64,000 nt of DNA from a phage: sequence record PZ445427.1; one strand, 5' to 3'. Positions 1 through 21,290 of this stretch are shown in pieces. A program made the translations under genes and the position numbers. Position 1 is the first letter of the stretch, and the number at the start of each line of letters is the position of its first letter. Under the pieces are notes generated by a model. The model did no database searches. It was not told the origin of the DNA and saw only the letters and a list, made by a program, of their open reading frames with translations.

Positions 1-173
1 TCATCTTCACCACAGAAGCGACGGAAGCCAGCTTCAAAGTTAGGCAAGCTACATACTTCCTCTAGATCGTACTCATCCCACAAGGATTTCCCACTAGCAG
101 TATCAGTACGGAAAGCACGAACACCACTATCTACACTCAAACCTGCACCACTAACAACGATTAGTCTACGCAT
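1..173 (-). CDS. Sir2-like NAD-dependent deacetylase, N-terminal part (gene continues left of window)
   Basis: Minus-strand ATG at 173..171; translation MRRLIVVSGAGLSVDSGVRAFR... matches sirtuin GAGxSxxSGIxxFR NAD-binding motif; TAATG overlap with upstream gene. Confidence 0.5.
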   Translation of the reverse strand, partial: MRRLIVVSGAGLSVDSGVRAFRTDTASGKSLWDEYDLEEVCSLPNFEAGFRRFCGED

Positions 174-325
174 TATACGATTCCTTGCTTGAATCCTTCG
201 ATGATATTTTGGAGCAGAATTGCTTCTTCTGGGCGAACCTTCTCTTGCTTAATAAGTATATCCAAACCAGCAATACAGGTAGCTACTCCAGCATTATACC
301 CAGCATTCCACTGCTCCATGAGCAT
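173..325 (-). CDS. hypothetical small protein (50 aa, internal Met of track ORF 173..451)
   Basis: Track ORF 173..451 overlaps 336..539 in another frame; only the part after stop of 336..539 is likely coding. Confidence 0.25.
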   Translation of the reverse strand: MLMEQWNAGYNAGVATCIAGLDILIKQEKVRPEEAILLQNIIEGFKQGIV

Positions 326-335
326 ATTTTCTAAA

Positions 336-539
336 TTACTTTTTAGATTCTGATTCAAGAAGTCCATAAAGTTTTTCCTCCAATTCCATAATACGATTTT
401 CGTAAGAAGCACGCAGCTTCTCGATGGACAAAGCACGAACTGTAACTTCATCTGAATTGATCGCTAGCTGAGCTAGATCTTCTGTTTCCATACGTCCGTT
501 GTAAATTAAGCGATATTTAAGATGTTTTACGTTTTTCAT
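336..539 (-). CDS. hypothetical protein (67 aa)
   Basis: ORF with AAGGAAC RBS upstream of ATG 539; in operon with flanking minus-strand genes. Confidence 0.45.
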   Translation of the reverse strand: MKNVKHLKYRLIYNGRMETEDLAQLAINSDEVTVRALSIEKLRASYENRIMELEEKLYGLLESESKK

Positions 540-548
540 TCTTGTTCC

Positions 549-830
549 TTAGTTCTGTACTGTAAATTCATTCTTATCACAGTGAGCATAATAATACCCA
601 TACATACGATAAATTTTAACAGCCTTAGTAGATCCTTTGGATTCTTCATAATCAATCCAGAGCCACTTGTCTTTACCTACATAATGTACCCGAAACTTCT
701 TAACTTTCTTATCATTCCATGTTGCAACAACACGACGATAATCAAATCCGCCTAACCAATCGAGAGCCTTACGTTCATCACTAGGCTCTCCAAGATGTGA
801 AACATCTACTTTAGGAAGCAATTCGCTCAT
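549..830 (-). CDS. hypothetical protein (93 aa)
   Basis: ORF preceded by GAGGAG RBS and a T5-type promoter on minus strand. Confidence 0.6.
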   Translation of the reverse strand: MSELLPKVDVSHLGEPSDERKALDWLGGFDYRRVVATWNDKKVKKFRVHYVGKDKWLWIDYEESKGSTKAVKIYRMYGYYYAHCDKNEFTVQN

Positions 831-857
831 AGCTTTCTCCTCTCAAATTTATAAATC

Positions 858-886
858 AATTATACATAAGTTTTAGCTCGAAAGCA
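858..886 (-). promoter_or_regulatory. sigma70 promoter (minus strand) TTGCTT-17-TATAAT
   Basis: plus-strand attata 858..863 and aagcaa 881..886 give minus-strand -10/-35 with 17-bp spacer; followed by ATAAATTTGAGAGGAG box. Confidence 0.6.
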
Positions 887-889
887 AAT

Positions 890-920
890 AAAATAAAAGC
901 CAGGTCGACTAGCAACCTGG
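890..920 (-). terminator. rho-independent terminator downstream of nrdD
   Basis: Stem gccaggt/acctggc (898..904/914..920) followed on minus strand by TTTTATTT. Confidence 0.6.
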
Positions 921-928
921 CTGATTCA

Positions 929-2803
929 TTATTTAGCGCGAATGTCCTGATGTTTCACTCGACCCATAACCTCATGTTGTTTGCCTGGGTTAAATGGACG
1001 AGCACCTGGATTTCCAAGATATCCGCAAACTCGACGAGTTACCTCAAGAGTCTCAGGATCATGATTGCCACAAATTGGGCATTTGAAACCATCCTCAGAA
1101 GCTATAGTTTCACCCAAGAACCCACATTCCCCACAAGAGTCTACTGGAGTATTAATACCGAAGTAATGAACTTTACTTGCAGCATAGTTAATAACCCATT
1201 CCAGTGCATCAGGGAATCGTTTCATATCCGGTAATTCCACATAGGAAATGCACCCACCAGAAGCAATAGGAGTAAAGTTAGACTCATAATCAAACTTCAC
1301 ATTTGGAGCAACCTTACGTTCTACATCAAGGTGATGGGAATTAGTGTAATATCCTTTAGCCAGAATATCTTCATGCTCTGGGAAATACTCACGGTCTAGG
1401 CGACAGAAGCGATCACATAGAGATTCAGATGGTGTAGCATACAGACTATACCCTAATTGAGTCTCTTCCTTCTTCTGATCAGCACGATCACGCATGTATT
1501 GTAGCACACGTTGAACGAACTTGATACAAGACTCAGACATTGTATCTACATCTTTACCAAACATGAGTTGCAACATTTCGTGGCAGCCAATATATCCTAG
1601 GGATACAGAAGCACGCTTGTAGAAATGATCAAATACATATTCATCTGGCCCCAGACGTAATCCAAAGGCTCCTGACATATAGAGGATGGGCGCAGCTTTA
1701 GCTTGAATGTATTTTAAGCGATCAACCCTCCACTCCAATCCTTTTAACGCGGTATCCACACGCAGCTCAAGCAGATCGAAGAATAGATCAATATTTCCTT
1801 CCGCTTCGATAGCAATTCGAGGAAGGTTCACAGAAACAACACCTAAGTTATTACGGCCAGAAGTTTCACCATCTTCCGCAGCAGCTAGGAATGAACGACA
1901 GCCCATAGAGACTTTGTAGTCACCAGTAACTTCTACAACCTTATCATAACTGATATAGTCAGGATACATACGTTCAGCAGTACATTTCATAGCTAACTTC
2001 TTGATATCATAGTTAACATCACCAGGTTTCATGTTAACACCATCACGAAGTACAAATACCAGTTTAGGGAAGATAGCTGTACGTTTATTAATACCCAAAC
2101 CATCCATACGCACTTCTAAGATTGCTTTCTGTACAAGACGTGCTTCCCAAGAAGTTCCTAGACCAAAACCAAAGGTAATAAATGGACTCTGACCATTAGA
2201 GTTGAACATCGTATTGATCTCATACTCTAGACCCTGACAGGCATCGTAAACTTCCTTCTCAGTCATTTCCGTAGCCATTACAGATGCTTTAGCTTCATCC
2301 TTAGTCCAACGTTTTGCAAACGCATGATTCTTATCATAAGACTTACGAACATAAGGAGCCAATACTTCATCTAATCGGTCTACAGAAGTACCACCATATT
2401 GATGTGAACTAACCTGAGTGATAATCTGAGCTGTGATAGCAGCCGCAGTAGTAATAGAGTTTGGCGTACTGATTTCAGCATTACCAACCTTCATACCGTT
2501 TTTCAACATATCTTCCAAAGCAACCAGGCAACAGTTAGTCATACCTAACGCAGCGTAATCAGCATCATGGAAGTGAATATCACCAATCATGTGAGCATTT
2601 CGAATCTGGATTGGCATTTCTTCCAGAATCAGATATTTACTCAATTCCCCTGCAAGCATGTCCCTTTGTGTAGGGAAACGTTCTGAGGGCTTATTGGCAT
2701 TATTAAACAGCAGCTCTTCATCTGCTGAACCTTCGATAATTTCTTTGCAGTTTCGAATCAAGGACTGCATTCCTTTATACTTTAGTTCTTCATTGCGATT
2801 CAT
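929..2803 (-). CDS. nrdD: anaerobic ribonucleoside-triphosphate reductase (class III)
   Basis: 624 aa; C-terminal glycyl-radical motif RVCGYLG and CxxC...CxxC zinc site; AAGGAGG RBS. Confidence 0.9.
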   Translation of the reverse strand: MNRNEELKYKGMQSLIRNCKEIIEGSADEELLFNNANKPSERFPTQRDMLAGELSKYLILEEMPIQIRNAHMIGDIHFHDADYAALGMTNCCLVALEDMLKNGMKVGNAEISTPNSITTAAAITAQIITQVSSHQYGGTSVDRLDEVLAPYVRKSYDKNHAFAKRWTKDEAKASVMATEMTEKEVYDACQGLEYEINTMFNSNGQSPFITFGFGLGTSWEARLVQKAILEVRMDGLGINKRTAIFPKLVFVLRDGVNMKPGDVNYDIKKLAMKCTAERMYPDYISYDKVVEVTGDYKVSMGCRSFLAAAEDGETSGRNNLGVVSVNLPRIAIEAEGNIDLFFDLLELRVDTALKGLEWRVDRLKYIQAKAAPILYMSGAFGLRLGPDEYVFDHFYKRASVSLGYIGCHEMLQLMFGKDVDTMSESCIKFVQRVLQYMRDRADQKKEETQLGYSLYATPSESLCDRFCRLDREYFPEHEDILAKGYYTNSHHLDVERKVAPNVKFDYESNFTPIASGGCISYVELPDMKRFPDALEWVINYAASKVHYFGINTPVDSCGECGFLGETIASEDGFKCPICGNHDPETLEVTRRVCGYLGNPGARPFNPGKQHEVMGRVKHQDIRAK

Positions 2804-2832
2804 TATACCCTCCTTCTCTAACTAAGACTACT

Positions 2833-2861
2833 ATTATAACTCATTCGAAGGCGGATGTCAA
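2833..2861 (-). promoter_or_regulatory. consensus sigma70 promoter for nrdD (TTGACA-17-TATAAT)
   Basis: plus-strand attata 2833..2838 and tgtcaa 2856..2861 = perfect -10 and -35 on minus strand, 17-bp spacer, about 25 nt upstream of nrdD start. Confidence 0.65.
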
Positions 2862-2912
2862 CAATATTTTACTATAACATTCTGTAAATTGATCTGAGTC
2901 AAAAAATTTTAT

Positions 2913-2941
2913 TTGCCAACCTCTATTAAAAATAGTATAAT
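2913..2941 (+). promoter_or_regulatory. sigma70 promoter TTGCCA-17-TATAAT
   Basis: ttgcca 2913..2918, tataat 2936..2941 in divergent nrdD/phoH intergenic region. Confidence 0.45.
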
Positions 2942-3053
2942 CACGCGCCCGTGTACGCGATATAAAATGATTATCTAGTACCACACATCTCCCAATAAAA
3001 GCAAGCAAATTTTTTATTTAAAAGCAATATCATAGGCTTATTTAAAATTGTAG

Positions 3054-3082
3054 TTGCTTTCTCCCGTATATATTGGTATAAT
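3054..3082 (+). promoter_or_regulatory. sigma70 promoter TTGCTT-17-TATAAT (phoH)
   Basis: ttgctt 3054..3059, tataat 3077..3082. Confidence 0.55.
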
Positions 3083-3155
3083 ATATTTGTAAGTTGATAA
3101 ACAAGATCTTTTTGTTGATCCTCTGTTAGCGAAGTACACTATAGGAGTGTTATTT

Positions 3156-3908
3156 ATGGGAAAAGCACGTCAAAAAAGAGAGAACCGCAATGGTTCAAGA
3201 AAGCGTGGCAACAAGTACGAGAGTAACGTAATTCAAGCAGATTTCTCTGGTGATTACGCCAATCCAGTTGCTAAATCCCTAGTTGGTAAAAACCGTGAGC
3301 AAAAATCATATATCAATATGATCAAGAACAACACAGTGACTGTGGGTATTGGTGAACCAGGTACTGGTAAAACCTTTATTCCATCCGTTCTTGCAGCTCA
3401 GGAACTCGTAGACATTCACTCAGATATTGAGCAAGTGATCCTCGTGCGTCCGAACGAACCTCTAGGTAAATCTCTTGGTATGCTCCCAGGTGATCTGGCA
3501 GAAAAGCTAGAGCCTTGGTTGGAACCAATAGCCGATGGCATGAAATGGGCAATCGGTGATCACGCCTACAAAGGATATGTCGAACGTCAGAAAATTAAAT
3601 TCCTGGCTATCGAACATGCCCGTGGCCGAACTTTCAACAACTCCTATGTAATTGTCGATGAAGCTCAGAATATCTCCGTTGAAGCAATGATCTGTCTCTT
3701 GACTCGTGTAGGACAAGATTGTCGTTTAATTATCTGTGGGGATATAGCGCAGAAAGACATCAAGGGTGATTCAGGTCTAGCACTTCTTATGGAAGTCTAT
3801 GAGAAGTATGAAAACTCTCCTTTCTCTATGATCGAACTGATCGACAACGTTCGCTCACCAGAGTCTAAAGCATTCTACGATATCTTTAAGGATATGGGGA
3901 AGGTGTAA
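3156..3908 (+). CDS. phoH: PhoH-like ATPase
   Basis: Walker A GEPGTGKT, PhoH-like fold; likely start ATG 3156 after AGGAG (track start 3147 is GTG). Confidence 0.8.
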   Translation: MGKARQKRENRNGSRKRGNKYESNVIQADFSGDYANPVAKSLVGKNREQKSYINMIKNNTVTVGIGEPGTGKTFIPSVLAAQELVDIHSDIEQVILVRPNEPLGKSLGMLPGDLAEKLEPWLEPIADGMKWAIGDHAYKGYVERQKIKFLAIEHARGRTFNNSYVIVDEAQNISVEAMICLLTRVGQDCRLIICGDIAQKDIKGDSGLALLMEVYEKYENSPFSMIELIDNVRSPESKAFYDIFKDMGKV

Positions 3909-3909
3909 T

Positions 3910-4152
3910 ATGGGAAACGTCGTACATCTGCACCGCAAAACTAAGATCCACCGTACTTCACTGAGTGCTGCTAATATGATTACACGTAAGGAAGGGGAAG
4001 AAAGTCCTAAGACTACCCTAGCGTGGAAAATTGTAGCCTCTAATCCAAATCGGCCTTTTAATTATAATGAACTTTCAACATCAGTAGATATTCTTCTGAG
4101 GGCGAATGCGAAAGCAAAAGTAATTAATCAAGCCGAAAAACTAGACTGGTAA
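3910..4152 (+). CDS. hypothetical protein (80 aa)
   Basis: ORF directly coupled to phoH stop (TAATATG). Confidence 0.4.
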   Translation: MGNVVHLHRKTKIHRTSLSAANMITRKEGEESPKTTLAWKIVASNPNRPFNYNELSTSVDILLRANAKAKVINQAEKLDW

Positions 4153-4273
4153 TATAGAAGGCCTGGGTATGAAAATACTCGGGCCTTTTCTATCAGAAAA
4201 TTTTATTTGCCAAATGACTGAGAATAAAGTAAACTATTTCCTAAATCCTGATAACTACAAAAAGGAAAGCCAA

Positions 4274-6604
4274 ATGAGCCATCGCATAGAAAAAGTAATC
4301 AAACGTGACGGTACTGTAGAAGACTTTGCTCCTGAAAAACTCAATGGTTGGGCAGTGTATGGCTGCAAAACAGTTGATGTAAGCTGGTCATCCATCACTA
4401 TGGCTGCTCAAAAAACTCTACCTAAAGGTGTTGTAGACTCCGACACCCTAATGGATGCGTTAATTAAAGCCGCTGAAGGTCTTATCAAAGATAACCCAGC
4501 ATATGATGTGCCAGCTAAGGAATTACGTCTTGCGCAGATGCGTAAACGTCTATATGACTCCTTCGAGCCTCCTTCTCTGCGTTTCTTCCACGATCATATG
4601 GTTAGTGTTGGAGCTTGGGAAGACATGAGTGCATGGATTAGCGATGATCAGTTTGATGCTCTGAATCAAGTTATCGATCATGATCGCGATCGTTTATTCA
4701 CCAGTGGTGGACTGAAACAGTTCTTCGACAAGTATTCCCGTCGTAATATTGCAACTGGTGAAATTTATGAAACCCCGCAGTTTGCCTACATGGGCATGGC
4801 AATGGCGATGTTATCTCAACCTAACTGGACAATCCTAGATGCAATCGACCTCTACAATGCAATGTCGCTCCACAAAATCAACGTTCCTACTCCACCTCTC
4901 GTGGGTCTTAGGAGCAGCGACCGCGGTTTTGCTTCTTGTTGTCTTGTTGATAGTACTGATACCCTCGATTCAATCGACACAGCCGAGCATATCGTCTTCA
5001 AAATGGTCGCAGCCAGAGCGGGAATCGGGTATCATCTTGAAAGCCGATCAATTGCTGATCCGGTGCGAAATGGGGCATTCCCGCATTCCGGAAAACTGCC
5101 ATATTATCGACACATTGACCGTTCAGTAAAAGCTAACACTCAGCAAACCCGTGGCGGTTCTGCTACTGTGTCTTATCCATACTTCGATCCTGAAATCATT
5201 CAGTTGATGCAGGTTAAGCAGCAACGTGCTACAGACGAGAATAAAATCGATAAGATGGATTATTCTCTGAGCTTTAACAACCTTCTGTTAAAACGTTACC
5301 TGAAAAACGAAGATATTACGCTAATGTCCTACTTCTACGCACCAGAAGTTCATGAAGCGTTTTATGGTGAAGATGAGGCTAAGTTTGAAGAAATCTACGT
5401 GGCAGCGGAGAAACGTGTGGCATCTCTTACAAAGACCGACCACGAAGGAAAAACAATTCCAGCAGCTCCTAGAATCTCTGCAAAAGAAATCCTAGATACT
5501 TGGTTACGTATCCGTATGGAAACAGGGCGTATGTATGCTCATCACATTGGTGAATCTAACCGTCATGGTAACTTCCTTGACCCGATTCGTATGACCAACC
5601 TTTGTGTTGAAATTACTCAGCCAACCCGTCCATTCCATCACATTACGGAACTGTATAAAACCCAAGATCAGTTAGACGATATGCGTCCAGAAGATATTGG
5701 TGAAGTATCTCTGTGTAACTTAGGTGGTGTTGTACTAGGCCGCATGGAATCTCTGGCTGAATGGGAGAAAACTTGCTACATCCTTCTGAAATTCGTTGAT
5801 ACAATCATCGAGATTCAGGATTACCCATTCCCAACTATGGAATACACGGCTAAGAAACGTCGAAACGTTGGTATTGGCCTGATGAACGCAGCAGGTGCAA
5901 TGGCAGCAGAAGGTTTGGCTTACGAAGGTGTTGAAGCTCGTAACTGGATTCACCGTGAAGCTGAAAAACTGTCTTACTTCCTGCACAAAGCATCTGTACG
6001 TCTGGCTAAAGAACAAGGTGCATGTGACTGGTTTAATCGTACTAAGCCATCCAAAGGAACTCTGGTAATCGACACGTACAAGAAAACTGTTGATGAACTG
6101 GTAACCGTAGGTCTAGAAATGGATTGGGAATCTCTGCGTGCAGATATCCTGAAATACGGTATGCGTAACTCTGTTCTGACTGCTCAGATGCCGGGTGAAA
6201 GTTCCTCTGTACTGCTAGGTGTTACTAACTCTATTGAACCACCTCGTAAGATTGTATCTATCAAGGGTAGTGCAGTGAATAAAGTAATTGCAATTGCTCC
6301 AGGTGCAACCGATTGGGATACATTAATGAGCTATAAACTGGCTTATGATGTAGATCGTATCGAGTGGATCAAATGGGTAGCAACCATGCAGAAATTTTTC
6401 AGTCAGTCTATCAGTACGAATATGTACTATGACTACACCAAGTTTGAGAATGAAATCATTCCTGGTCCAGTAGTAGTTCGTGATTTCATGACTGCTGTTA
6501 AGTACGGTTGGAAAACTTGGTACTACGCTAACTTCAACACTGAAAATGGTGGTGGAGCTGGTGAAGAAGCAGCAGGTTGTGCATCCGGTGGTTGTAACCT
6601 ATAA
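4274..6604 (+). CDS. nrdA: ribonucleoside-diphosphate reductase large subunit (class Ia)
   Basis: ATP-cone VIKRDG start, C-terminal CxxxxC tail; start taken at ATG 4274 after AAAGGAAA (track ORF starts earlier at 4169). Confidence 0.9.
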   Translation: MSHRIEKVIKRDGTVEDFAPEKLNGWAVYGCKTVDVSWSSITMAAQKTLPKGVVDSDTLMDALIKAAEGLIKDNPAYDVPAKELRLAQMRKRLYDSFEPPSLRFFHDHMVSVGAWEDMSAWISDDQFDALNQVIDHDRDRLFTSGGLKQFFDKYSRRNIATGEIYETPQFAYMGMAMAMLSQPNWTILDAIDLYNAMSLHKINVPTPPLVGLRSSDRGFASCCLVDSTDTLDSIDTAEHIVFKMVAARAGIGYHLESRSIADPVRNGAFPHSGKLPYYRHIDRSVKANTQQTRGGSATVSYPYFDPEIIQLMQVKQQRATDENKIDKMDYSLSFNNLLLKRYLKNEDITLMSYFYAPEVHEAFYGEDEAKFEEIYVAAEKRVASLTKTDHEGKTIPAAPRISAKEILDTWLRIRMETGRMYAHHIGESNRHGNFLDPIRMTNLCVEITQPTRPFHHITELYKTQDQLDDMRPEDIGEVSLCNLGGVVLGRMESLAEWEKTCYILLKFVDTIIEIQDYPFPTMEYTAKKRRNVGIGLMNAAGAMAAEGLAYEGVEARNWIHREAEKLSYFLHKASVRLAKEQGACDWFNRTKPSKGTLVIDTYKKTVDELVTVGLEMDWESLRADILKYGMRNSVLTAQMPGESSSVLLGVTNSIEPPRKIVSIKGSAVNKVIAIAPGATDWDTLMSYKLAYDVDRIEWIKWVATMQKFFSQSISTNMYYDYTKFENEIIPGPVVVRDFMTAVKYGWKTWYYANFNTENGGGAGEEAAGCASGGCNL

Positions 6605-6613
6605 TAAAAACAA

Positions 6614-6640
6614 GGAGATCTTCGGGTCTCCTTTTTCTTT
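6614..6640 (+). terminator. rho-independent terminator after nrdA
   Basis: ggagatc-ttcg-ggtctcc hairpin then T-run. Confidence 0.6.
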
Positions 6641-6650
6641 GAAATTTTAC

Positions 6651-6679
6651 TTGCTAATCGCTACCAGATTTGCTATAAT
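6651..6679 (+). promoter_or_regulatory. sigma70 promoter TTGCTA-17-TATAAT (nrdB)
   Basis: ttgcta 6651..6656, tataat 6674..6679. Confidence 0.6.
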
Positions 6680-6710
6680 ATTCCTGAAATAGTGAGAAAG
6701 AGGAAAATCA

Positions 6711-13935: not shown

Positions 13936-14253
13936 ATGATTTTTCATATTCTGATTGATGATGTGCGTAACCTTCATGGAATGGACATTATCATTCGAAC
14001 CCCCGAAGCCGCTGTTGAGTTTCTGAATAAAACCGATACCACAGGTCATTTCGTTTATATGGATAACGATCTGGCTGTAGATGGTATGGAAGGTTATCAA
14101 ATTCTTCGTTTACTCCTAGAATTTGGTCAGAGACCCAAGAAAGTGGTACTAGTAACCTCGAACCCAGTAGCTAAAGAGACCATGCGTAATGATCTCTTAG
14201 ACGAAGGGTATCAAGAAAGCCCTAATCGTATTGAGTACGATTGGCCGGAGTAA
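13936..14253 (+). CDS. CheY-like receiver-domain protein (orphan)
   Basis: ILIDDV acidic pocket, YMDNDLAVDGMEG around the putative phospho-Asp, VVLVTSNP; 105 aa. Confidence 0.4.
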   Translation: MIFHILIDDVRNLHGMDIIIRTPEAAVEFLNKTDTTGHFVYMDNDLAVDGMEGYQILRLLLEFGQRPKKVVLVTSNPVAKETMRNDLLDEGYQESPNRIEYDWPE

Positions 14254-14258
14254 ATAAA

Positions 14259-14708
14259 ATGAAGGCAGCTTTGCTTTTAATAGCTGCCCTAACCTATAGC
14301 TTCAATAGTCATGCGACCTACGACTCAAAGCAGATTGATTGCATTGCAAAAAATATCTACTTCGAAGCACGAGGTGAGGGCACTAAAGGAATGATCGCAG
14401 TTGCACAGGTTACTAAAAACCGTGTTAACTCTGGTACTTTTCCTGATTCTTACTGTAAAGTAGTATATCAGTCTAACCAGTTCTCTTGGGTGGCCAAGAG
14501 ACCAAAAGTTGATAAAACCGATGAGGCTTGGCAAGTTGCTAAGAATTTAGCTAGAGTGATATACTACGTTGATTTACCACAAGATCCAACACATGGAGCG
14601 TTATACTTCCATAGTGGTAAAGATAAACCGTACTGGACAAAGAAGTTTAAGAAAACAACGAAGATTCAAGGCCATACGTTCTACAAGCCTGTGGTTAAGA
14701 AAACTTAA
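14259..14708 (+). CDS. secreted SleB-like cell-wall hydrolase (Hydrolase_2 family)
   Basis: Start ATG 14259 after GGAG gives signal peptide MKAALLLIAALTYSFNSHA; motifs NIYFEARGE, AVAQVTKNRV, YQSNQFSWV. Confidence 0.6.
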   Translation: MKAALLLIAALTYSFNSHATYDSKQIDCIAKNIYFEARGEGTKGMIAVAQVTKNRVNSGTFPDSYCKVVYQSNQFSWVAKRPKVDKTDEAWQVAKNLARVIYYVDLPQDPTHGALYFHSGKDKPYWTKKFKKTTKIQGHTFYKPVVKKT

Positions 14709-14716
14709 AAATTCGA

Positions 14717-14745
14717 TTGCTTAAAGCCTTAAATTTCTGTATAAT
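14717..14745 (+). promoter_or_regulatory. T5-type early promoter
   Basis: ttgctt 14717..14722, 17 bp, tataat 14740..14745. Confidence 0.6.
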
Positions 14746-14776
14746 ACTTTCATAAATTAATGAGAGGAAGCGAAAT

Positions 14777-14947
14777 ATGAAATCAGTTGTAATTATTGGT
14801 GTTAATACTCGTGGTATCCGTACTACGAAAACAGTTAAAACTACTAACGTTGCTGAAATTACTACAAACCCTAAGAAGTTTGATTTCGCTAAAGTCTCGG
14901 CAGTTATGACAGAACAATCTTTTAACCAAGCACTGGGAATTAAATAA
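14777..14947 (+). CDS. small hypothetical protein (56 aa, below track cutoff)
   Basis: GAGAGGAAG RBS then ATG 14777; stop overlaps next start (TAATG). Confidence 0.45.
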   Translation: MKSVVIIGVNTRGIRTTKTVKTTNVAEITTNPKKFDFAKVSAVMTEQSFNQALGIK

Positions 14948-15390
14948 TGGAAGAGAATATTCTAAATGTTTTGCGTAGGGCTTTGCAGGAATCTAAGGTT
15001 GATGGTTCTGATAAAGAAGTAGCTAAAAGCTACCAGACCATAATCGGAGATCTTCAGCGTGTTGATAAAGACTTCATTACTTCTGAACAGTTTGTATCTT
15101 ATCTAAAAGCTCAACTGAAAAGCATTAATCAGACGAAAGCTAAACTTCACGGTCAAGACCTTGATAATTATAGCTTGCAGTCTGCTCAGTATGAGTATAT
15201 ACTGAACAAATGGCTACAACAGTATCTGCCGCCTCAGTTATCTGATTCTGAGATTCGCAAATACTTTGCAGAATTAGTTAAGTTGAACCCTGGGATTACA
15301 AAAGGTATGCTGATGAAAGCGATTAAGGAAGAGTTTCCTGGTCGTTACGACGGTGGCATTGCTGCTCAGGTTGCTGGCGAATTTAATTAA
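14947..15390 (+). CDS. YqeY/GatB-domain-like protein
   Basis: 147 aa; LNVLRRALQESK ... ELVKLNPGITKGMLMKAIKEEFPGRYDG resembles YqeY family. Confidence 0.45.
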   Translation: MEENILNVLRRALQESKVDGSDKEVAKSYQTIIGDLQRVDKDFITSEQFVSYLKAQLKSINQTKAKLHGQDLDNYSLQSAQYEYILNKWLQQYLPPQLSDSEIRKYFAELVKLNPGITKGMLMKAIKEEFPGRYDGGIAAQVAGEFN

Positions 15391-15398
15391 AAATTGAT

Positions 15399-15427
15399 TT
15401 GCTAAACGCCTCAAAATTCTGTATAAT
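15399..15427 (+). promoter_or_regulatory. T5-type early promoter (very close to classical P_N25 sequence)
   Basis: ttgcta 15399..15404, 17 bp, tataat 15422..15427, then AGATTCATAAATT. Confidence 0.65.
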
Positions 15428-16286
15428 AGATTCATAAATTAGAGAACAGCGAGCCGATTACGCTGAGTGAGTTTAGTGATTCCTACTAGGATAGCTATTC
15501 CACTGAATAGAGTCGGTGAGTTGGAGACTAGTAAGTACTCTGAGAGAGGCTACGAGCTAACGCTTATTGCTATTGATAGGGAACTGAAAATCTGCGGAAA
15601 ACTCGGGAGCTGTCCCGAAATCTCGTAAACTCTTCTCTAGTTTATGTTAGTGGGGTGTCGAACTGACTTATGTGATAACACTGCCGTCCTAGTATAAACG
15701 GTAATATCAAACCGTAACTGGTGGAAGATGCAGGTTCGAATCCTGCGGTCGGAAAGAATCAGATAACTCGGGCTTATACCGGATAAGCATTCGCTGCTGG
15801 AGTACATACTATGACGGTTCAGGAGGTACGCCACCTGATCAGTATTAGGTTAGAATCGAAACAGCTAAACCACGAGGAAACCTGACGGCCTCAACCAAAC
15901 TCGGAACTCGGGATCACTGCCTAGTGTGTGCCCCGTTTAACCTGAGACTAGGCATCCAGCTTCGCATCGAAAATCGGAGGTGCGATTCTAACAGACCGCG
16001 TGAATATGAGAGTGGGAAACGCTGACATGAGAGATGTCACTAATGGTGCCCAATAGTACAGGTAATTCGCGATAATTCCTGTTGAGCGGCAGCAGTAGGC
16101 TGGGAGTCATGACCTAAGCCTAACCGAGTTCTTCACATACGGAGAACATAACCACAAAGTCACCCTGACTTAAACTGGAAGATATTGTCTGACGGAAGGG
16201 CTGCAGAGCTTAATCTGAGGGGGCTGACCCTACCTACCGTCGGGTATCTTTAAGAGCTTTTATAAGAGTTCTTAAAAATACCTAAA

Positions 16287-16361
16287 CGGGGTGTAGTCTA
16301 AGGGATAGGCAGGAGTCTTCTAAATTCCTTTATGCAGGTTCGAATCCTGTCACCTCGGCCA
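16287..16361 (+). tRNA. tRNA-Arg(TCT)
   Basis: Acceptor cggggtg/cacctcg, anticodon loop cttctaa, T-arm gcagg-ttcgaat-cctgt, CCA encoded. Confidence 0.75.
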
Positions 16362-16387
16362 ATTTTATTAACTGCTAGGAAAATAAA

Positions 16388-16588
16388 GTGAAAACACGAT
16401 ATATAGTAAAAGTAGTAGGTGAACATTCACAAGTAAATACCACCGATGTTACAGCGCTAGCATTTGAAGTAGTCTCCGGTATAGTCATATTTCATAACGG
16501 AGATATCAAAGCTCCTGAATTTGCTGTGGATGCTAGCCTGTTTATTTCTGCAACTAAAGTAACTGTAGTAGCTAACTCTTCTAAATAA
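16388..16588 (+). CDS. hypothetical protein (66 aa, GTG start)
   Basis: AGGAAA RBS before GTG. Confidence 0.45.
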   Translation: MKTRYIVKVVGEHSQVNTTDVTALAFEVVSGIVIFHNGDIKAPEFAVDASLFISATKVTVVANSSK

Positions 16589-16599
16589 TAAGGAAATAT

Positions 16600-17544
16600 A
16601 TGTTTACTAAAAACACTAAAGAACTGACTTCCGATCAAAAAGTAATTCGTACTATTAAACGTTGGGGTGTTGGTGCTGTAGTTGGTCTTGGCGCTCTTAT
16701 TCTGGCTCTCAATTCCTACACAGTTGTTCAGGATGGTACTGTTAAGACTCAAACCTTCCTGGGTAAAGTTAGCCCGAACCCTGTACTGCCAGGCTTCCAT
16801 ATTGTTAACCCATTTGCTTCTTTTGATACTTTTAGTACGAAAGATATTTCTATGAAACTGGATAAACTTCAGGTTCCTAGCCAGGATAAGTTTAAGTCTA
16901 CTGTTGACATTACCGTTATGTTGCAGTTTGATGGTGCTAAAGCTCCTATGAACCGTGTTAACGCAGGTACTCAGGATCAGGCTCTGAACAAGTACGTTGA
17001 AGAGAAGATGCTATCTACGATTCGTGAGTTTGGTAAGTCTGTACCAAAAGCACAAGATCTGTTCGACGCTAAGATTCAGGCTCAACTGCAAACTGCTATT
17101 CAGCAAGAAGTAGAGGAGTATGCGCGTCCTTATGGTTACACCGTTAAGCAAGTATTCCTTCAGGATATTACTCTGCCACCGGTAATCATGGAACAGGTAC
17201 AGAACACCAAAGTTCGTGAAGAACAAGTTAACGCTGCAAAAGCTGAACTGGCTCGTGTTGAACAAGAAGCACAACAGAAAGTTAAGCAAGCTGAGGCAGA
17301 TCGTTCTGCTCGTGAAAACATGGCAGTAGCTAACGAACGTGACGCAGATGCTAAACTGTACGCAGCTAAGAAAGAAGCTGAAGCTAACGCCGCTCTGCAA
17401 CGTACCATTACTCCTGAAATGATTCGTTGGAAGCAGCTGGAAGTTGAAATGCTTCGTGCTGAAAAATACCAAGGTGGTGTACCGCAGACTGTTGTTGGTA
17501 CTGGCTATGATGGTCAAATGATCATGGATATGCGTAACAAGTAA
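16600..17544 (+). CDS. SPFH/band-7 (prohibitin/HflK-like) membrane protein
   Basis: N-terminal TM segment then SPFH-like core (VVQDGTVKTQTF, PGFH, DITV) and long coiled-coil tail. Confidence 0.6.
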   Translation: MFTKNTKELTSDQKVIRTIKRWGVGAVVGLGALILALNSYTVVQDGTVKTQTFLGKVSPNPVLPGFHIVNPFASFDTFSTKDISMKLDKLQVPSQDKFKSTVDITVMLQFDGAKAPMNRVNAGTQDQALNKYVEEKMLSTIREFGKSVPKAQDLFDAKIQAQLQTAIQQEVEEYARPYGYTVKQVFLQDITLPPVIMEQVQNTKVREEQVNAAKAELARVEQEAQQKVKQAEADRSARENMAVANERDADAKLYAAKKEAEANAALQRTITPEMIRWKQLEVEMLRAEKYQGGVPQTVVGTGYDGQMIMDMRNK

Positions 17545-17568
17545 TAGTTACACGTAATCTTCGAACCA

Positions 17569-17601
17569 AGCCCGCGTTTCCTCCGAGAGCGCGGGCTTTT
17601 C
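17569..17601 (+). terminator. rho-independent terminator
   Basis: agcccgcg ... cgcgggct hairpin then TTTTCT. Confidence 0.6.
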
Positions 17602-17611
17602 TGTATTTAAG

Positions 17612-17654
17612 ACAAAAGAAAAGCCCCTTACCTTTCGGCAGGGGCTTTGTTTTT
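17612..17654. terminator. bidirectional terminator between convergent transcription units
   Basis: aagcccct ... aggggctt hairpin flanked by A-run upstream and TTTGTTTTT downstream. Confidence 0.6.
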
Positions 17655-17861
17655 GGTTTAGAACCATATACTCTTGTTACAGCAACCACCCATACGGGAG
17701 ACCAATCTTGACTGAAAATCTACTCTAGGGGGCAGGATAAGAGTAGGCTTAAAGGCAAACGGATTGAACACCGGTATTTGCGTAAACATTGCTGGAGAGC
17801 AACAACGTGCTACAGGCATTGGGCAGCATGATGTAGGTTTTCTACAACACATATAAACTCC

Positions 17862-18281
17862 TTAGGATTTCTCCCCATTTTGCGCTTTTGCAACTTGACT
17901 TTGACAGAAACTATTAAACTTACCCATAAGTGAAACAAGTTGCTTCCCATCCTCTGTTTTAGCGAAGTCTTCGAAAAGGGCTAGAACAGCCTGTCCTTCC
18001 GCAGATACCTGCGGTTGTTGGGTTTGTTGAGTCATCTGCTGCTGTGGTTGCATTTGCTGAGGCATCATCTGCTGAGGCACCATTTGTTGCATTTGCATTT
18101 GCGGCTGCATTTGCATCTGGTTGATGTTTCCCTGCGGGTTTTGCAGGGAATTTTGCATTTGCTGTGCTTCTGCCAATCTCTGTTGCAACTGTTGTAAGTA
18201 GGGGTTATCCAGCCCCGGAACGGGCTGCTGGGAGCCCATACTTTGATTAAATCCGTTGTTCACAAAACCATATTTACTCAT
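17862..18281 (-). CDS. Q/M-rich low-complexity protein (139 aa)
   Basis: GGGGAGGAG RBS; central QMQMQPQMQMQQMVPQQMMPQQMQPQQQ tract. Confidence 0.6.
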   Translation of the reverse strand: MSKYGFVNNGFNQSMGSQQPVPGLDNPYLQQLQQRLAEAQQMQNSLQNPQGNINQMQMQPQMQMQQMVPQQMMPQQMQPQQQMTQQTQQPQVSAEGQAVLALFEDFAKTEDGKQLVSLMGKFNSFCQSQVAKAQNGEKS

Positions 18282-18303
18282 GATGGGCTCCTCCCCTTAA
18301 TTA

Positions 18304-19299
18304 TTAAGCCGGCAGTTTAGCCTGCAGACCAGCCAGAGTCTGAGTGATAGCACCAAGACTTACAGCGATTTGGTTGATTACCTGACCGTTAGCACCGCTA
18401 CCCTGAGCGATAGCTTCACGCAGACGGCATTCGTTCAGTTCGTCCTGAATACGCGCAGTAGTTACACCAGCGATTGCAGACTGAAGTTCACAGCAGCATT
18501 CAGCGATCTGACGTTCCAGAGCGTTCTGGTTAGCACAAGCCTGAGCAGCTACAGCAGCGAACTGGTTGTTAGTCTGGATAGACTGAGCAAACATGATCTG
18601 AGCGGTATCGAACTTGTCTTGAGCACGTGCGATCTGGTTAGCAGCGAAAGCTTGATCCATTTGACGAGAAAGATCGAACTGACCCTGAATAACATTACGA
18701 GTTTCCTGACAGATCTGGTTGGACAGGTTAGCACCAGTACCGTAGATCGTAGTCAGAAGCTGTTGAGTACTAGCAGCTTGAGCAGCTCCTACACCATTTA
18801 CTGCACTCAGAACAGCACCAGTACCCTGATTAGCTTCAGTACGAGTAGTGTTGATTGCAGCTAGAATACTTGCAGTATCCTGGTTAGAAAGGATCGCATC
18901 CACAGCAGTTCCCTCAGCGGCAACACCAGCACCGCGGCCAAAACCACCGAAACCACCGAATCCGCCTGTTAATAGAGCACCGATTAGGATAGCTCCGAAT
19001 AGACCCATACCTTCACCACCGAAAGCACCATTAGCAACTGCTGGGTAACCACCCATTAGGCCAGGGAAGCCACTAGTGAATACGTTTACTGGTTCTTGCA
19101 TTTTATGTTTTCCATGTTTATGACAATGTTCATCATCGTCATCTTCTTCATCATTTTCATCGTGTTCACGATGTTCTTTTTCGTAGGCCTTGACCTTCTC
19201 CCACTTTTTCTTGTCTGATTCTTCGTGACGACGCAGTTCTGCTGCTACGCCAGCGACCGTATCAGGACTCTTAGCTACTTCTTCTGTCATTTTTGACAC
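18304..19299 (-). CDS. membrane-anchored Gly/Ala/Gln-rich protein (331 aa)
   Basis: AGGAGGTG RBS; acidic His-rich segment, TM LFGAILIGALLTGGFGGFGGFG, A/Q-rich C-terminal half; antisense track ORFs inside are spurious. Confidence 0.6.
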   Translation of the reverse strand: MSKMTEEVAKSPDTVAGVAAELRRHEESDKKKWEKVKAYEKEHREHDENDEEDDDDEHCHKHGKHKMQEPVNVFTSGFPGLMGGYPAVANGAFGGEGMGLFGAILIGALLTGGFGGFGGFGRGAGVAAEGTAVDAILSNQDTASILAAINTTRTEANQGTGAVLSAVNGVGAAQAASTQQLLTTIYGTGANLSNQICQETRNVIQGQFDLSRQMDQAFAANQIARAQDKFDTAQIMFAQSIQTNNQFAAVAAQACANQNALERQIAECCCELQSAIAGVTTARIQDELNECRLREAIAQGSGANGQVINQIAVSLGAITQTLAGLQAKLPA

Positions 19300-19351
19300 C
19301 TCCTAGTATATAGAAAATGTGTGTCTCTTTGATCACTCATCCATATCATAT

Positions 19352-19380
19352 ACTTTACATTACCCCAGCGAAAATGTCAA
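19352..19380 (-). promoter_or_regulatory. sigma70 promoter (minus strand) TTGACA-17-TAAAGT
   Basis: plus-strand tgtcaa 19375..19380 gives minus -35; -10 TAAAGT 17 bp downstream. Confidence 0.45.
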
Positions 19381-19496
19381 GGGGTCTTTAAAAATTGCCC
19401 CCGGATTTTTAGTGGGGTAACAATTTCTGGACTTCACCACTCACCTGCTACCCTTAAGTGCCCTGCGATTTTCCACTAAAAAGTTTAAAAATTCGA

Positions 19497-19525
19497 TTGC
19501 TTGAATGCTAAATTCTCTGTATAAT
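19497..19525 (+). promoter_or_regulatory. T5-type early promoter
   Basis: ttgctt 19497..19502, 17 bp, tataat 19520..19525. Confidence 0.6.
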
Positions 19526-19555
19526 ATATTTATAAATTTGAGAGAGGAATCAAAT

Positions 19556-20611
19556 ATGATTAAGACTGGTCTAGTAATTGGTAAGTTCGCACCATTAACG
19601 CGTGGTCATATTAACCTAATAAACACAGCAGCAACTATGTGTGAACGAGTTATTGTTGTAGTTAGTCATGATAATCGTTGGCTGGATAAGCAGAACACAC
19701 GTGATCAGGAAGTATTACAGTTAAAGAATCGACTTCGTTGGTTAGAACAAACTTACGCGGATATTGAGCACATTTCGGTAGAGTACATTATTGAAGATGA
19801 TATTCCTGAATATCCGAATGGTTGGCCGGAATATGCTAGAATCCTTAATGAAAATTACGGACATTTGCCTGAGATCACCATTTTCTCTAGCGAACTAGAC
19901 TATGATGCAGAATATAAGAAATATCTGCCGAAGTTTGGTCATTATATTGTAGATTCTGATCGGACTCGTGTTCCAATCTCAGCTACAATGATTCGTAATG
20001 ATCTTATGAAGTATTGGGAGTTTCTTCCTAGCGTAGTTCGTAAAGATTACGTGCGTAAGGTTGTAATCATTGGGACTGAAAGCTCGGGAAAGACTACTTT
20101 AACAAAATACCTTGCGAAGCTATACAACACTTCGTGGGTAGAAGAATATGGCCGAACGTATTGTGAAGTTGATCTAGTTGGTAACGAAAATCTACTTACC
20201 AGTGAAGATTATAGTAAAATTGCGTTCAGACACAAAGAGCTAGAGTTTGAAGCAGAACGTACTGCAAATAAGATCATGTTTGTGGATACAAATGCTTTTA
20301 TTACTGAGTTCTACCACAGACTTTATGAACATCGTAAGAATCCTGTGGTTACAGCAATTGCAAAAGAAGAACATTACGATTTAGTAATTGTTCTAGCGCC
20401 TACTGTTAAGTGGGTAGATGATGGTTTACGTATTAACTCCGATCGTTCAATTACTTCTGAACTGTTCGAGCAGATGAAGAAAGAATTTCCAAATCAGTTC
20501 CCTGAAGGGCGTACTGTTTACATCGACTCCCCGGACTACAAAGTTCGTATGGACGAAGCAGTAAACGCAGTAGACTGGCTGATTCATCACTTTAACGTTG
20601 GAGAGTTTTAA
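19556..20611 (+). CDS. nadR: NadR-like bifunctional NMN adenylyltransferase / ribosylnicotinamide kinase
   Basis: GKFAPLTRGH nucleotidyltransferase motif and IIGTESSGKTTL P-loop; start ATG 19556 (track start 19505 lies in promoter). Confidence 0.7.
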   Translation: MIKTGLVIGKFAPLTRGHINLINTAATMCERVIVVVSHDNRWLDKQNTRDQEVLQLKNRLRWLEQTYADIEHISVEYIIEDDIPEYPNGWPEYARILNENYGHLPEITIFSSELDYDAEYKKYLPKFGHYIVDSDRTRVPISATMIRNDLMKYWEFLPSVVRKDYVRKVVIIGTESSGKTTLTKYLAKLYNTSWVEEYGRTYCEVDLVGNENLLTSEDYSKIAFRHKELEFEAERTANKIMFVDTNAFITEFYHRLYEHRKNPVVTAIAKEEHYDLVIVLAPTVKWVDDGLRINSDRSITSELFEQMKKEFPNQFPEGRTVYIDSPDYKVRMDEAVNAVDWLIHHFNVGEF

Positions 20612-20612
20612 T

Positions 20613-21290
20613 ATGACTAACTATCTTGTAAATGACTTTAAAAACTGGAAACCTTTGGAATATCTGTGGCTGTTTATAGCAGTCGCCTTTATTAGTTTAG
20701 CAAACTATAATGGTACAGCTCTAGATTGGGCTACTGCAATAACCAATGTGGTTTGTGTTATTCTGGTTGCAAAAGGACGTGTTTCCAACTATATTTGGGG
20801 CTTAGTGGGTGTTCTTACATATGGTATTACAGCTTTAAACGCAGATCTTTATGGTAACGCTGCACTAAACCTGCTATACTACGTTCCTATGCAGTTTTAT
20901 GGAATGTACTTATGGCATAAAAATAAGCCAAGTAATCTGCCAGATGTTCCAACTAAGGTTCTGACTAAAGCCCAAGCTCTGCTGACTCTAGGGATTCTAG
21001 CAGTAGCCACGTTAGGGTATGGTAGTTTCTTAGCTACTACGGCTGATCCATTCCCAATGTTGGATGCATTTACTGCGGTAGGTAGTGTGATCGCTATGTG
21101 GCTTATGGTTAAGCAGTATGCCGAGCAGTGGCTGATCTGGATTGCTATTAACATTGGTACTGTGTACATTTGGCTTGTAACTGCTCAATCTACAGGTGCA
21201 TCTTATGCAATCCTAGCAATGTGGCTAGTATTCTTAGGTAACTCTATTATGGGAGCCTATAAAGGATACTTTGTACGCGTTAACAAATAA
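20613..21290 (+). CDS. pnuC: PnuC-like nicotinamide riboside transporter
   Basis: Polytopic membrane protein immediately after nadR; start ATG 20613 after GGAGAG. Confidence 0.6.
   Translation: MTNYLVNDFKNWKPLEYLWLFIAVAFISLANYNGTALDWATAITNVVCVILVAKGRVSNYIWGLVGVLTYGITALNADLYGNAALNLLYYVPMQFYGMYLWHKNKPSNLPDVPTKVLTKAQALLTLGILAVATLGYGSFLATTADPFPMLDAFTAVGSVIAMWLMVKQYAEQWLIWIAINIGTVYIWLVTAQSTGASYAILAMWLVFLGNSIMGAYKGYFVRVNK

What the first reader, a model, noticed from the sequence alone, without database searches (positions are those of the whole stretch)
1..21290. NAD-metabolism gene set: Sir2-like fragment, NadR-like NMNAT/RNK and PnuC transporter
The window starts inside a sirtuin-like gene (1..173, minus) and carries a NadR-like bifunctional enzyme (19556..20611) translationally adjacent to a PnuC-like transporter (20613..21290). 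Together these could let the phage import nicotinamide riboside and rebuild NAD+ during infection, which by established knowledge of NAD-depleting abortive-infection systems would counter such defences. The Sir2-like protein could conversely consume NAD or modify host proteins.
Basis: partly seen in the sequence, partly recalled or inferred. Interest (0 to 1): 0.55.

Follow-up and report, generated by a model that had tools for sequence, protein, structure and literature searches.

The report
Known phage NAD-rebuilding operon (NARP3)
This T5-like phage carries a two-gene operon (a nicotinamide riboside importer and an enzyme that turns the riboside into NAD+) that is almost identical to the NARP3 system published in 2026 as a counter to NAD-depleting bacterial defences, so the finding is correct but already known.

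Summary
All three features are present at the stated coordinates. The window comes from a T5-like phage (Demerecviridae, Epseptimavirus). The NadR-like gene (19556..20611, +) is 350/351 aa identical to Bas30_86 of phage TrudiRoth and to PDB 9x6f/9x6h. The PnuC-like gene (20613..21290, +) is 224/225 identical to Bas30_87. Yan et al. (Sci Adv, Aug 2026) named this pair NARP3: PnuC imports nicotinamide riboside, and the HTH-less NadR phosphorylates and adenylates it to NAD+. Expressed together, the two proteins restored NAD+ and phage plating against Sir2-HerA and DSR1. Every residue whose mutation is reported in the sections of that paper read here is conserved in the window. The operon has its own T5-type early promoter (the P15a equivalent) and ends in a hairpin. 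T5 itself carries a different gene in that slot, so NARP3 is an accessory cassette.

The Sir2 piece (1..173, -) is the first 57 aa of the conserved T5-family sirtuin. It lies in a separate operon on the opposite strand, 19 kb away, and it occurs in T5, which has no NARP3. I found no experimental work on its role. A published prediction links it, with a neighbouring HAD phosphatase, to RNA repair.

Verdict: the central interpretation is correct, the 21-kb "gene set" is not one unit, and the finding is already known. Interest is low.

The parts
19487..19559 (+). Early promoter plus initial transcribed region of the operon. -35 TTGCTT at 19497-19502, 17-nt spacer, -10 TATAAT at 19520-19525, RBS GAGAGAGGA at 19540-19548.
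   Evidence: Read directly from the sequence. Nearly identical to the feature annotated 'promoter P15a' in the T5 RefSeq record. About 115 nt upstream of the ATG are identical in TrudiRoth and Sw2.
19556..20611 (+). NadR-like bifunctional enzyme without an HTH domain. The NMN adenylyltransferase domain spans about res 3-160 and the ribosylnicotinamide kinase P-loop domain about res 168-314. It is the NARP3 enzyme and orthologue of Bas30_86.
   Evidence: domains; the match starts at position 65 of the 411-position NadR profile, so there is no HTH. (350/351 identical to PDB 9x6f/9x6h). (350/351 identical to Bas30_86). (all mutated residues conserved).
20613..21290 (+). PnuC-type nicotinamide riboside transporter, orthologue of Bas30_87. 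Its RBS GGAGAG at 20600-20605 lies inside the end of the NadR gene.
   Evidence: NMN_transporter, TIGR01528. (N. mucosa PnuC 4QTN, E 9e-33). (224/225 identical to Bas30_87). (N45, Q94 and N180 present).
21298..21320 (+). 9-bp G+C-rich hairpin (ATAGCCCTC-GCTTA-GAGGGCTAT) ending the operon. The T-run is weak.
   Evidence: -18 kcal/mol, z -4.7, 0 of 200 shuffles fold as well. The equivalent site is annotated as a terminator in Sw2. The consensus scan did not call it because there is no T-tract.
21328..21400 (+). Second copy of the same promoter/UTR cassette, driving the next ORF (98 aa, ATG at 21397). Together with 19487-19559 it brackets the NARP3 cassette as a direct repeat.
   Evidence: (82% over 73 nt; the last ~50 nt are nearly identical).
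1..173 (-). First 57 codons of the T5-family sirtuin (Sir2-like, about 280 aa in relatives). The rest lies beyond the window edge. Its ATG overlaps the stop of the upstream small ORF (ATAATG).
839..864 (-). -10 hexamer and initial transcribed region of a T5-type early promoter, upstream of the minus-strand operon (three small ORFs, then Sir2).
   Evidence: 3 mismatches to the cassette. T5 has a promoter annotated at the equivalent place, upstream of T5.100.

Best explanation
Positions 19487..21320 are a self-contained early transcription unit that encodes the phage NAD+ reconstitution pathway 3 (NARP3).

The mechanism has three steps. The PnuC-type membrane protein lets external nicotinamide riboside (NR) into the infected cell. 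The C-terminal P-loop kinase domain of the NadR-like enzyme phosphorylates NR to NMN using ATP, which also traps it inside. The N-terminal nucleotidyltransferase domain then adenylates NMN with ATP to give NAD+.

Because the enzyme has no HTH domain, it is not a repressor. Because the operon sits behind a T5-type early promoter, it should be made soon after infection (inference). The result is that the NAD+ pool is refilled faster than abortive-infection NADases such as Sir2-HerA and DSR1 can empty it, so phage replication can finish.

Basis of each step. Shown for near-identical proteins in the literature: NR binding by the transporter, both enzymatic steps, the crystal structure with NAD+, restoration of NAD+/NADH, and a 10^3-10^4-fold rescue of T7 and lambda plating. 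Inferred: the early timing, and that the operon does the same job in its own phage.

The Sir2 fragment at 1..173 is not part of this unit. It is the start of the conserved T5-family sirtuin, an NAD+-using enzyme whose target has not been tested.
For:: NadR-like 350/351 identical to Bas30_86. PnuC 224/225 identical to Bas30_87; same identity to PDB 9x6f/9x6h.

all residues whose mutation abolished function are present (K10, F11, S37, E80, P84, G89, F110, S112, D115, V139, I141, E230 and D275 in the enzyme; N45, Q94 and N180 in the transporter).

alignment to H. influenzae NadR 1LW7: the TxGH motif, ISATxIR, Walker A GTESSGKT, the FVDT Walker B and the WVDDGLR lid are all in place.

domain architecture, and the absence of the HTH.

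PMC13464706: biochemistry, structure, and NAD+ restoration and plaque rescue against EcSir2-HerA, AbSir2-HerA and DSR1. The same operon was hypothesised earlier by Osterman et al. 2024 and Iyer et al. 2022.

promoter, RBS, 1-nt gene junction and terminal hairpin.
Against: NARP3 was tested only by plasmid expression with the heterologous phages T7 and lambda. The authors state that it was not examined in its native phage, so the role in a T5-like infection is inferred.

NADase defences release ADP-ribose and nicotinamide, neither of which this pathway can use. It therefore depends on NR in the medium (inference from the pathway).

The E. coli and Salmonella hosts already have PnuC and NadR. T5 itself does without the operon, so it is dispensable for the basic life cycle.

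The window proteins each differ from the tested ones by one residue (R260S, A25V). Neither position is among the functional residues.
Confidence: 0.87

Rival explanations
1. Housekeeping supply rather than counter-defence. On this view the operon mainly feeds the phage's own NAD+-consuming enzymes: the split LigA-type NAD-dependent DNA ligase and the sirtuin, and indirectly the NAD(P)H-dependent nucleotide-synthesis genes next to it. The NMNAT domain could re-adenylate the NMN that the ligase releases, which would need no imported NR.
For: Close relatives encode NAD-dependent ligase subunits A and B and the Sir2-like protein. The operon sits in the early region next to NrdD, NrdAB, DHFR and ThyA. 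Ligase chemistry (NAD+ to AMP + NMN) is established knowledge.
Against: T5 has the same ligase and sirtuin set but no NadR-PnuC, so these enzymes do not need it. The published phenotype is specifically rescue from NAD+-depleting defences, with little cost or effect otherwise. The two roles are not mutually exclusive.
Confidence: 0.2
2. Sir2, NadR and PnuC form one coordinated NAD module. The sirtuin would consume or redirect NAD+, for example by modifying host proteins, while NadR-PnuC replenishes it.
For: All three proteins handle NAD+ or its precursors. Both operons carry the same class of early promoter cassette. At megablast sensitivity the Sir2 gene is found in 220 records and the operon in 208, with similar host spectra. 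That mostly reflects membership of the same genus.
Against: The genes are on opposite strands, 19 kb apart, with many unrelated genes between them. T5 keeps Sir2 (T5.102) without NARP3. The conserved neighbour of the sirtuin is a HAD_SAK_2 phosphatase, not NadR. NARP3 worked in E. coli without any phage sirtuin.
Confidence: 0.07
3. The NadR-like protein is a transcriptional regulator, as several GenBank records name it ('NadR transcriptional regulator', 'DNA-dependent negative transcription regulator').
For: Only the annotation strings in some records.
Against: The protein starts directly at the NMNAT motif. The NadR profile match begins at profile position 65 of 411, so the HTH domain is absent. 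No NadR box lies near the operon. The paper describes Bas30_86 as HTH-less.
Confidence: 0.01

Closest known systems
NARP3 of Escherichia phage TrudiRoth (Bas30_86/Bas30_87; Yan et al., Sci Adv 2026, PMC13464706; PDB 9x6f, 9x6h)
   Same: Same two genes in the same order with a 1-nt junction. The promoter and 5' leader are identical over the ~115 nt upstream of the ATG. The proteins are 350/351 and 224/225 identical, and all tested functional residues are present. Both phages belong to the genus Epseptimavirus.
   Different: One substitution in each protein (R260 here against S; A25 here against V). The window, like Sw2 and T5, has three extra minus-strand ORFs (17658..19299) just upstream that TrudiRoth lacks.
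Bacterial NadR (E. coli/Salmonella trifunctional NadR; H. influenzae NadR, PDB 1LW7) with chromosomal PnuC (N. mucosa PnuC, PDB 4QTN)
   Same: Same NMNAT plus RNK two-domain enzyme (E 4e-55 to 1LW7) and same PnuC fold family (E 9e-33 to 4QTN). Same chemistry: NR to NMN to NAD+.
   Different: No N-terminal HTH repressor domain. The first His of HxGH is Thr (TRGH), as in pantetheine-phosphate adenylyltransferases (the PPAT comparison is from my own knowledge). The two genes are fused into one phage early operon, whereas nadR and pnuC are at separate loci in E. coli.
NARP1 (Adps + Namat) and NARP2 (Nampt + Nmnat) of phages (Osterman et al. 2024)
   Same: Same outcome: the phage rebuilds NAD+ to escape NAD+-depleting immunity.
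   Different: NARP1 recycles ADP-ribose plus nicotinamide, and NARP2 uses nicotinamide plus PRPP. NARP3 needs imported nicotinamide riboside and includes a transporter. It cannot reuse the NADase products.
T5-family sirtuin (T5.102; SP15-type sirtuin plus 'Swiss-army-knife' HAD neighbourhood of Iyer et al. 2022)
   Same: The window fragment is 57/57 identical to Sw2 gp120 and 76% identical to T5.102. The closest solved relatives of the full-length protein are CobB-type deacylases (1S5P, E 7e-17). The GAGxS loop, the TxNxD motif and the HG catalytic His are present in relatives.
   Different: Only 57 aa lie in the window. The full-length relatives have none of the four Zn-ribbon cysteines of CobB. 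They match no defence-type Sir2 model. Function is predicted (RNA 2'-phosphate removal), not tested.

Membership tests
NARP3 (phage NadR-like + PnuC-like operon) | Two adjacent co-oriented genes, with the NadR-like gene immediately upstream of the PnuC-like gene | tested here: met
   19556..20611 and 20613..21290, both on the + strand, with a 1-nt gap
NARP3 (phage NadR-like + PnuC-like operon) | Enzyme has NMNAT and RNK domains but lacks the HTH domain | tested here: met
   CTP_transf_like at res 7-147 and AAA_28 at res 168-314. The NadR profile matches from position 65 of 411
NARP3 (phage NadR-like + PnuC-like operon) | Orthology to the characterised Bas30_86/Bas30_87 | tested here: met
   350/351 and 224/225 identities. 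PDB 9x6f at E 9e-241
NARP3 (phage NadR-like + PnuC-like operon) | Residues shown by mutagenesis to be needed (enzyme: K10, F11, S37, E80, P84, G89, F110, S112, D115, V139, I141, E230, D275; transporter: N45, Q94, N180) | tested here: met
   All are present at the same positions. The residue list comes from PMC13464706
NARP3 (phage NadR-like + PnuC-like operon) | NR uptake, NR to NMN to NAD+ activity, and rescue from NAD+-depleting defence | not testable with these tools
   Shown for the near-identical Bas30 proteins only, by heterologous expression. Not done in a native phage
Enterobacterial trifunctional NadR (regulator) | N-terminal HTH DNA-binding domain, with NadR-box operators | tested here: not met
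   No residues precede the NMNAT motif. No NadR box with 2 or fewer mismatches lies in 19300-19560
PnuC transporter family (Pfam PF04973 / TIGR01528) | Profile match above the curated cut-off over the full domain | tested here: met
   148.3 bits against 27.3, and 121.2 bits against 42.45. Aligns with 4QTN over res 9-215
Sirtuin (Pfam SIR2) | Profile match above the cut-off, with the GAGxS NAD loop and the catalytic His | tested here: inconclusive
   The window fragment scores 17.6 bits against a cut-off of 24 and has the GAGLS loop only. The catalytic His lies beyond the window edge. The full-length Sw2 orthologue, identical over the 57 aa, scores 78.3 bits and has the HAHG motif
Defence-type Sir2 NADase effectors (Sir2-HerA, DSR, ThsA; PADLOC models) | Match to a defence Sir2 model | tested here: not met
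   No PADLOC family at E <= 0.01 for the full-length Sw2 orthologue
NAD+ riboswitch-controlled pnuC/nadA operons | An Rfam NAD+ riboswitch (nadA or pnuC motif) in the leader | tested here: not met
   Rfam at E <= 0.1 over 1..22000 gives four tRNA-model hits (three clear, one marginal at 15683-15754) and one weak sRNA hit. The leader is only about 30 nt long

The most novel reading that the evidence does not exclude
The NARP3 cassette may be a swappable cargo in a fixed early-promoter slot of T5-like genomes. Homology with T5 runs up to the ATG behind the P15a promoter and then stops. T5 carries an unrelated 172-aa gene there. In the window the cassette is bracketed by two direct copies of the promoter/leader module, which could mediate its gain and loss by recombination.

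In addition, the NMNAT half of the enzyme might recycle the NMN released by the phage's own NAD-dependent ligase. That would give a phage-private NAD cycle that works without external NR and also feeds the T5-family sirtuin/HAD putative RNA-repair pair.
Probability: 0.2. Interest if true: 0.4.

Novelty: already known. Interest (0 to 1): 0.15.

Why it matters
NAD+ depletion is a widespread form of bacterial abortive-infection immunity, and phages that can refill the pool escape several unrelated defence systems at once. This bears on phage host range and on the design of therapeutic phages. For this window, the value is correct annotation. Many GenBank relatives still label these genes 'hypothetical protein' or 'NadR transcriptional regulator'.

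Two questions remain open. First, does NARP3 matter in a native T5-like infection? The published study could not test this. Second, what does the conserved T5-family sirtuin do?

Tried and rejected
- Host NadR operator (TGTTTA-N6-TAAACA, up to 2 mismatches): 13 hits in the window against 6.9 expected, and none in the operon's promoter region. There is no sign of control by host NadR.
- NAD+ riboswitch or any other Rfam family in 1..22000: only tRNA-model hits (three clear, one marginal) and one sub-threshold sRNA hit.
- Consensus promoter/terminator scan: no enrichment over shuffles, and it missed both the TTGCTT-17-TATAAT promoter and the hairpin, which has no T-tract. These were read directly and supported by homology to the annotated T5 promoter P15a and by folding.
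- Divergent upstream ORFs 17862..18281 and 18304..19299: no Pfam or PADLOC hit, and only PHROGs of unknown function. They are not NAD-related as far as these tools can tell.
- The 98-aa ORF after PnuC is unrelated to T5.076. The two 331-aa ORFs of the window are unrelated to each other.
- The second 'Sir2' annotated in Sw2 and T5 (gp117/T5.105) is a HAD_SAK_2 phosphatase, not a sirtuin.
- Literature searches for an experimental study of the T5 sirtuin found none in the held library.
- One Python call failed because loci are stored several to a file and was rerun.
- The large protein-database searches, structure prediction and fold search were not used. The 99.7% match to a solved, characterised protein made them unnecessary.


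Full report
**What the window is.** The first 25 kb match T5-like siphophages of the family Demerecviridae, genus Epseptimavirus. The best matches are Salmonella phages EH2 and EH5 (97.7% identity over 95% of the query), and Sw2, Stitch, IrmaTschudi and many others also match. In the annotated relative Sw2, gene order in 1..21290 is as follows: Sir2 (cut by the window edge), three small ORFs, NrdD, PhoH, NrdA, NrdB, DHFR, ThyA, RNase H, an exonuclease, an endolysin-like gene, a YqeY-like gene, tRNA-Arg, an SPFH lipoprotein, the minus-strand ORFs of unknown function (two annotated in Sw2, three ORFs in the window), NadR-like, and PnuC. A long tRNA array follows. This is the early region of a T5-type genome.

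**Checking the observation.**
- The NadR-like CDS runs from the ATG at 19556 to the TAA at 20609-20611 (351 aa).
- The longer ORF from 19505 listed by the ORF listing starts between the -35 and -10 hexamers, so it cannot be the real start. A strong RBS (GAGAGAGGA, 19540-19548) precedes 19556.
- Pfam finds CTP_transf_like (res 7-147) and AAA_28 (res 168-314). NCBIfam PRK08099 (NadR) scores 256 bits against a cut-off of 201. That match starts at profile position 65 of 411, so the N-terminal HTH domain of enterobacterial NadR is absent.
- PnuC starts one base after the NadR stop (ATG at 20613), with GGAGAG at 20600-20605, and ends at 21290. It scores 148 bits on Pfam NMN_transporter and 121 bits on TIGR01528, and it aligns with N. 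mucosa PnuC 4QTN at E 9e-33.
- The minus-strand stretch 173..1 encodes 57 residues with the sirtuin GAGLSxxSGVxxFR loop. Alone it is sub-threshold on Pfam SIR2 (17.6 bits against 24).
- The fragment is nevertheless 57/57 identical to the N-terminus of the 280-aa Sir2 of Sw2, which scores 78 bits, and 76% identical to T5.102.

**What the NadR-PnuC pair is.** The enzyme is 350/351 identical to PDB entries 9x6f/9x6h and to Bas30_86 of Escherichia phage TrudiRoth. The transporter is 224/225 identical to Bas30_87. The ~115 nt upstream of the start codon are identical too. Yan et al. (Sci Adv, 12 Aug 2026, PMC13464706) named this two-gene operon NARP3 and reported the following:
- Bas30_87 is a trimeric PnuC-type protein that binds nicotinamide riboside (Kd about 0.66 uM). 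N45A, Q94A and N180A each abolish binding and function.
- Bas30_86 converts NR to NMN to NAD+ in vitro, and was crystallised with and without NAD+.
- Co-expressing both genes, but not either alone, restores NAD+/NADH and raises T7 and lambda plating 10^3-10^4-fold on E. coli carrying EcSir2-HerA or AbSir2-HerA. It also counteracts DSR1.
- Mutations in either catalytic domain abolish the effect.

Every residue named in those experiments is present at the same position in the window proteins. The two substitutions (R260 against S in the enzyme, A25 against V in the transporter) are not among them. The alignment with H. influenzae NadR (1LW7) shows the canonical motifs: GKFAPLTRGH (a TxGH variant of HxGH), ISATMIR, Walker A GTESSGKT, FVDT, and the WVDDGLR lid. 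The idea predates that paper. Iyer et al. 2022 listed phage NadR among NAD-salvage enzymes. Osterman et al. 2024 explicitly proposed that the NadR-PnuC operon of BASEL phages is a further NAD+ reconstitution pathway.

**Anatomy of the unit.**
- The promoter is TTGCTT (19497-19502), a 17-nt spacer, then TATAAT (19520-19525), followed by a conserved leader.
- It is nearly identical to the feature annotated 'promoter P15a' in the T5 RefSeq record.
- The same promoter/leader cassette occurs seven times in the window. One copy lies at 839-864 (-), upstream of the operon that contains Sir2. Another lies at 21328-21400, directly after PnuC.
- A 9-bp G+C-rich hairpin at 21298-21320 ends the operon. 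It folds at -18 kcal/mol, z -4.7, and the equivalent site is annotated as a terminator in Sw2.
- No host NadR box and no NAD+ riboswitch are associated with the operon.
- Early timing is inferred from promoter homology. It has not been measured.

**An accessory cassette.**
- A BLAST comparison with T5 shows 86% identity from window 16590 to 19559, which is exactly up to the start codon.
- After that there is nothing until a short match of the second promoter copy (21333-21400) to T5 P15a. Collinear homology resumes at the tRNA-Ser/Met genes at 21716.
- In T5, the P15a promoter drives T5.076, a 172-aa protein unrelated to anything in this stretch of the window.
- NadR-PnuC is therefore alternative cargo in a conserved promoter slot, bracketed in the window by direct repeats of the promoter module.
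- At megablast sensitivity the operon is present in 208 phage records. Most are Salmonella (161) and Escherichia (31) phages. By comparison, about 626 records match the surrounding 25 kb.

**The Sir2 fragment.**
- It belongs to a separate minus-strand operon (promoter-like cassette at 839-864, three small ORFs, then Sir2, whose ATG overlaps the preceding stop).
- Full-length relatives are closest to CobB-type deacylases (1S5P, E 7e-17). They keep the catalytic HG histidine but have none of the Zn-ribbon cysteines. They match no PADLOC defence Sir2 model.
- In Sw2, TrudiRoth and T5, three genes downstream is a protein annotated 'Sir2' or 'hypothetical' that is in fact a HAD_SAK_2 phosphatase.
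- Iyer et al. 2022 describe exactly this neighbourhood (SP15-type phages). They predict a KptA-like role in removing RNA 2'-phosphates during RNA repair.
- I found no experimental study.
- T5 has the sirtuin and the HAD gene but not NARP3, so the two are not an obligate functional set.

**Rivals and open points.** The main caveats are these:
- NARP3 has been shown to work only when expressed from plasmids with heterologous phages, as the authors themselves state.
- The pathway cannot reuse the ADP-ribose and nicotinamide that NADases produce, so it needs external NR (inference from the pathway).
- A complementary housekeeping role is plausible, because relatives encode a split NAD-dependent ligase and the sirtuin, and ligase releases NMN, which is a substrate of the NMNAT domain. 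T5 manages without the operon, however.
- A regulatory role, as some GenBank names suggest, is excluded by the missing HTH domain.

**Verdict.** The central interpretation is correct and already demonstrated in the literature for proteins that differ by a single residue each. The link to Sir2 is unsupported. Novelty: already known. Interest is low (0.15). What remains of interest is the untested native-phage phenotype, the cassette-swap architecture at the P15a slot, and the uncharacterised T5-family sirtuin, most of which lies outside this window.

Noticed in passing
window 839-864(-), 12571-12596, 19520-19545, 21361-21386, 21725-21750, 54558-54583(-), 61653-61678(-): Seven copies of a T5-type early promoter -10 plus conserved leader (TATAATATATTYATAAATTTGAGAGAGGA). 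None are expected by chance. The NadR copy is nearly identical to T5 promoter P15a. Such repeats could act as recombination points for swapping gene cassettes.
   Followed up: partly
window 19560-21716 versus T5 NC_005859 37279-37797 (L006): Homology with T5 breaks exactly at the start codon behind P15a. T5 carries T5.076 (172 aa, annotated as primase/Toprim-like) where this phage carries NadR-PnuC and a 98-aa ORF. The NARP3 cassette is bracketed by direct repeats at 19487-19559 and 21328-21400.
   Followed up: partly
window 17658-19299 (-): Three minus-strand ORFs (64, 139 and 331 aa; homologues of T5.079-T5.077; phrog_7894 and phrog_8119, function unknown, no Pfam or PADLOC hit). They lie divergently upstream of NadR. 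They are present in Sw2 and T5 but deleted in TrudiRoth.
   Followed up: partly
window 15628-16286 (+): A stretch free of long ORFs (only a 65-aa minus-strand GTG ORF at 15637-15834), homologous in three blocks (80-87% identity) to the T5 feature 'RNAX, stable RNA with unknown functions', next to tRNA-Arg(tct). It contains a marginal Rfam tRNA hit at 15683-15754 (29.3 bits, right at the cut-off) that ARAGORN did not call.
   Followed up: no
window 16287-31212 (+): An array of 29 tRNA genes interspersed with very small ORFs, typical of T5-like phages.
   Followed up: no
L002:199-1041 (Sw2 Sir2), L007:2948-3766 (T5.102); only window 1-173 is inside the window: The T5-family sirtuin keeps the NAD loop and the catalytic HG but has lost all four Zn-ribbon cysteines present in its closest solved relative, CobB.
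   Followed up: partly
L002:1412-1918 (Sw2 gp117), L007:4089-4595 (T5.105): A gene annotated 'Sir2 (NAD-dependent deacetylase)' in the T5 and Sw2 RefSeq records is actually a HAD_SAK_2 ('Swiss army knife' RNA-repair) phosphatase (Pfam 69 bits). This looks like a propagated mis-annotation.
   Followed up: yes
L004:11378-13487 (TrudiRoth bas30_0038/0039), outside the window: Relatives encode an NAD-dependent DNA ligase split into A and B subunits. It is another phage NAD+ consumer and a source of NMN.
   Followed up: no
window about 56973-64000: The far end of the window holds pre-early genes (A1-like, 554 aa; dmp-like) followed by a receptor-binding tail protein gene. The source record is therefore arranged differently from Sw2 and T5, with the terminal-repeat/genome-end junction inside the window.
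   Followed up: no
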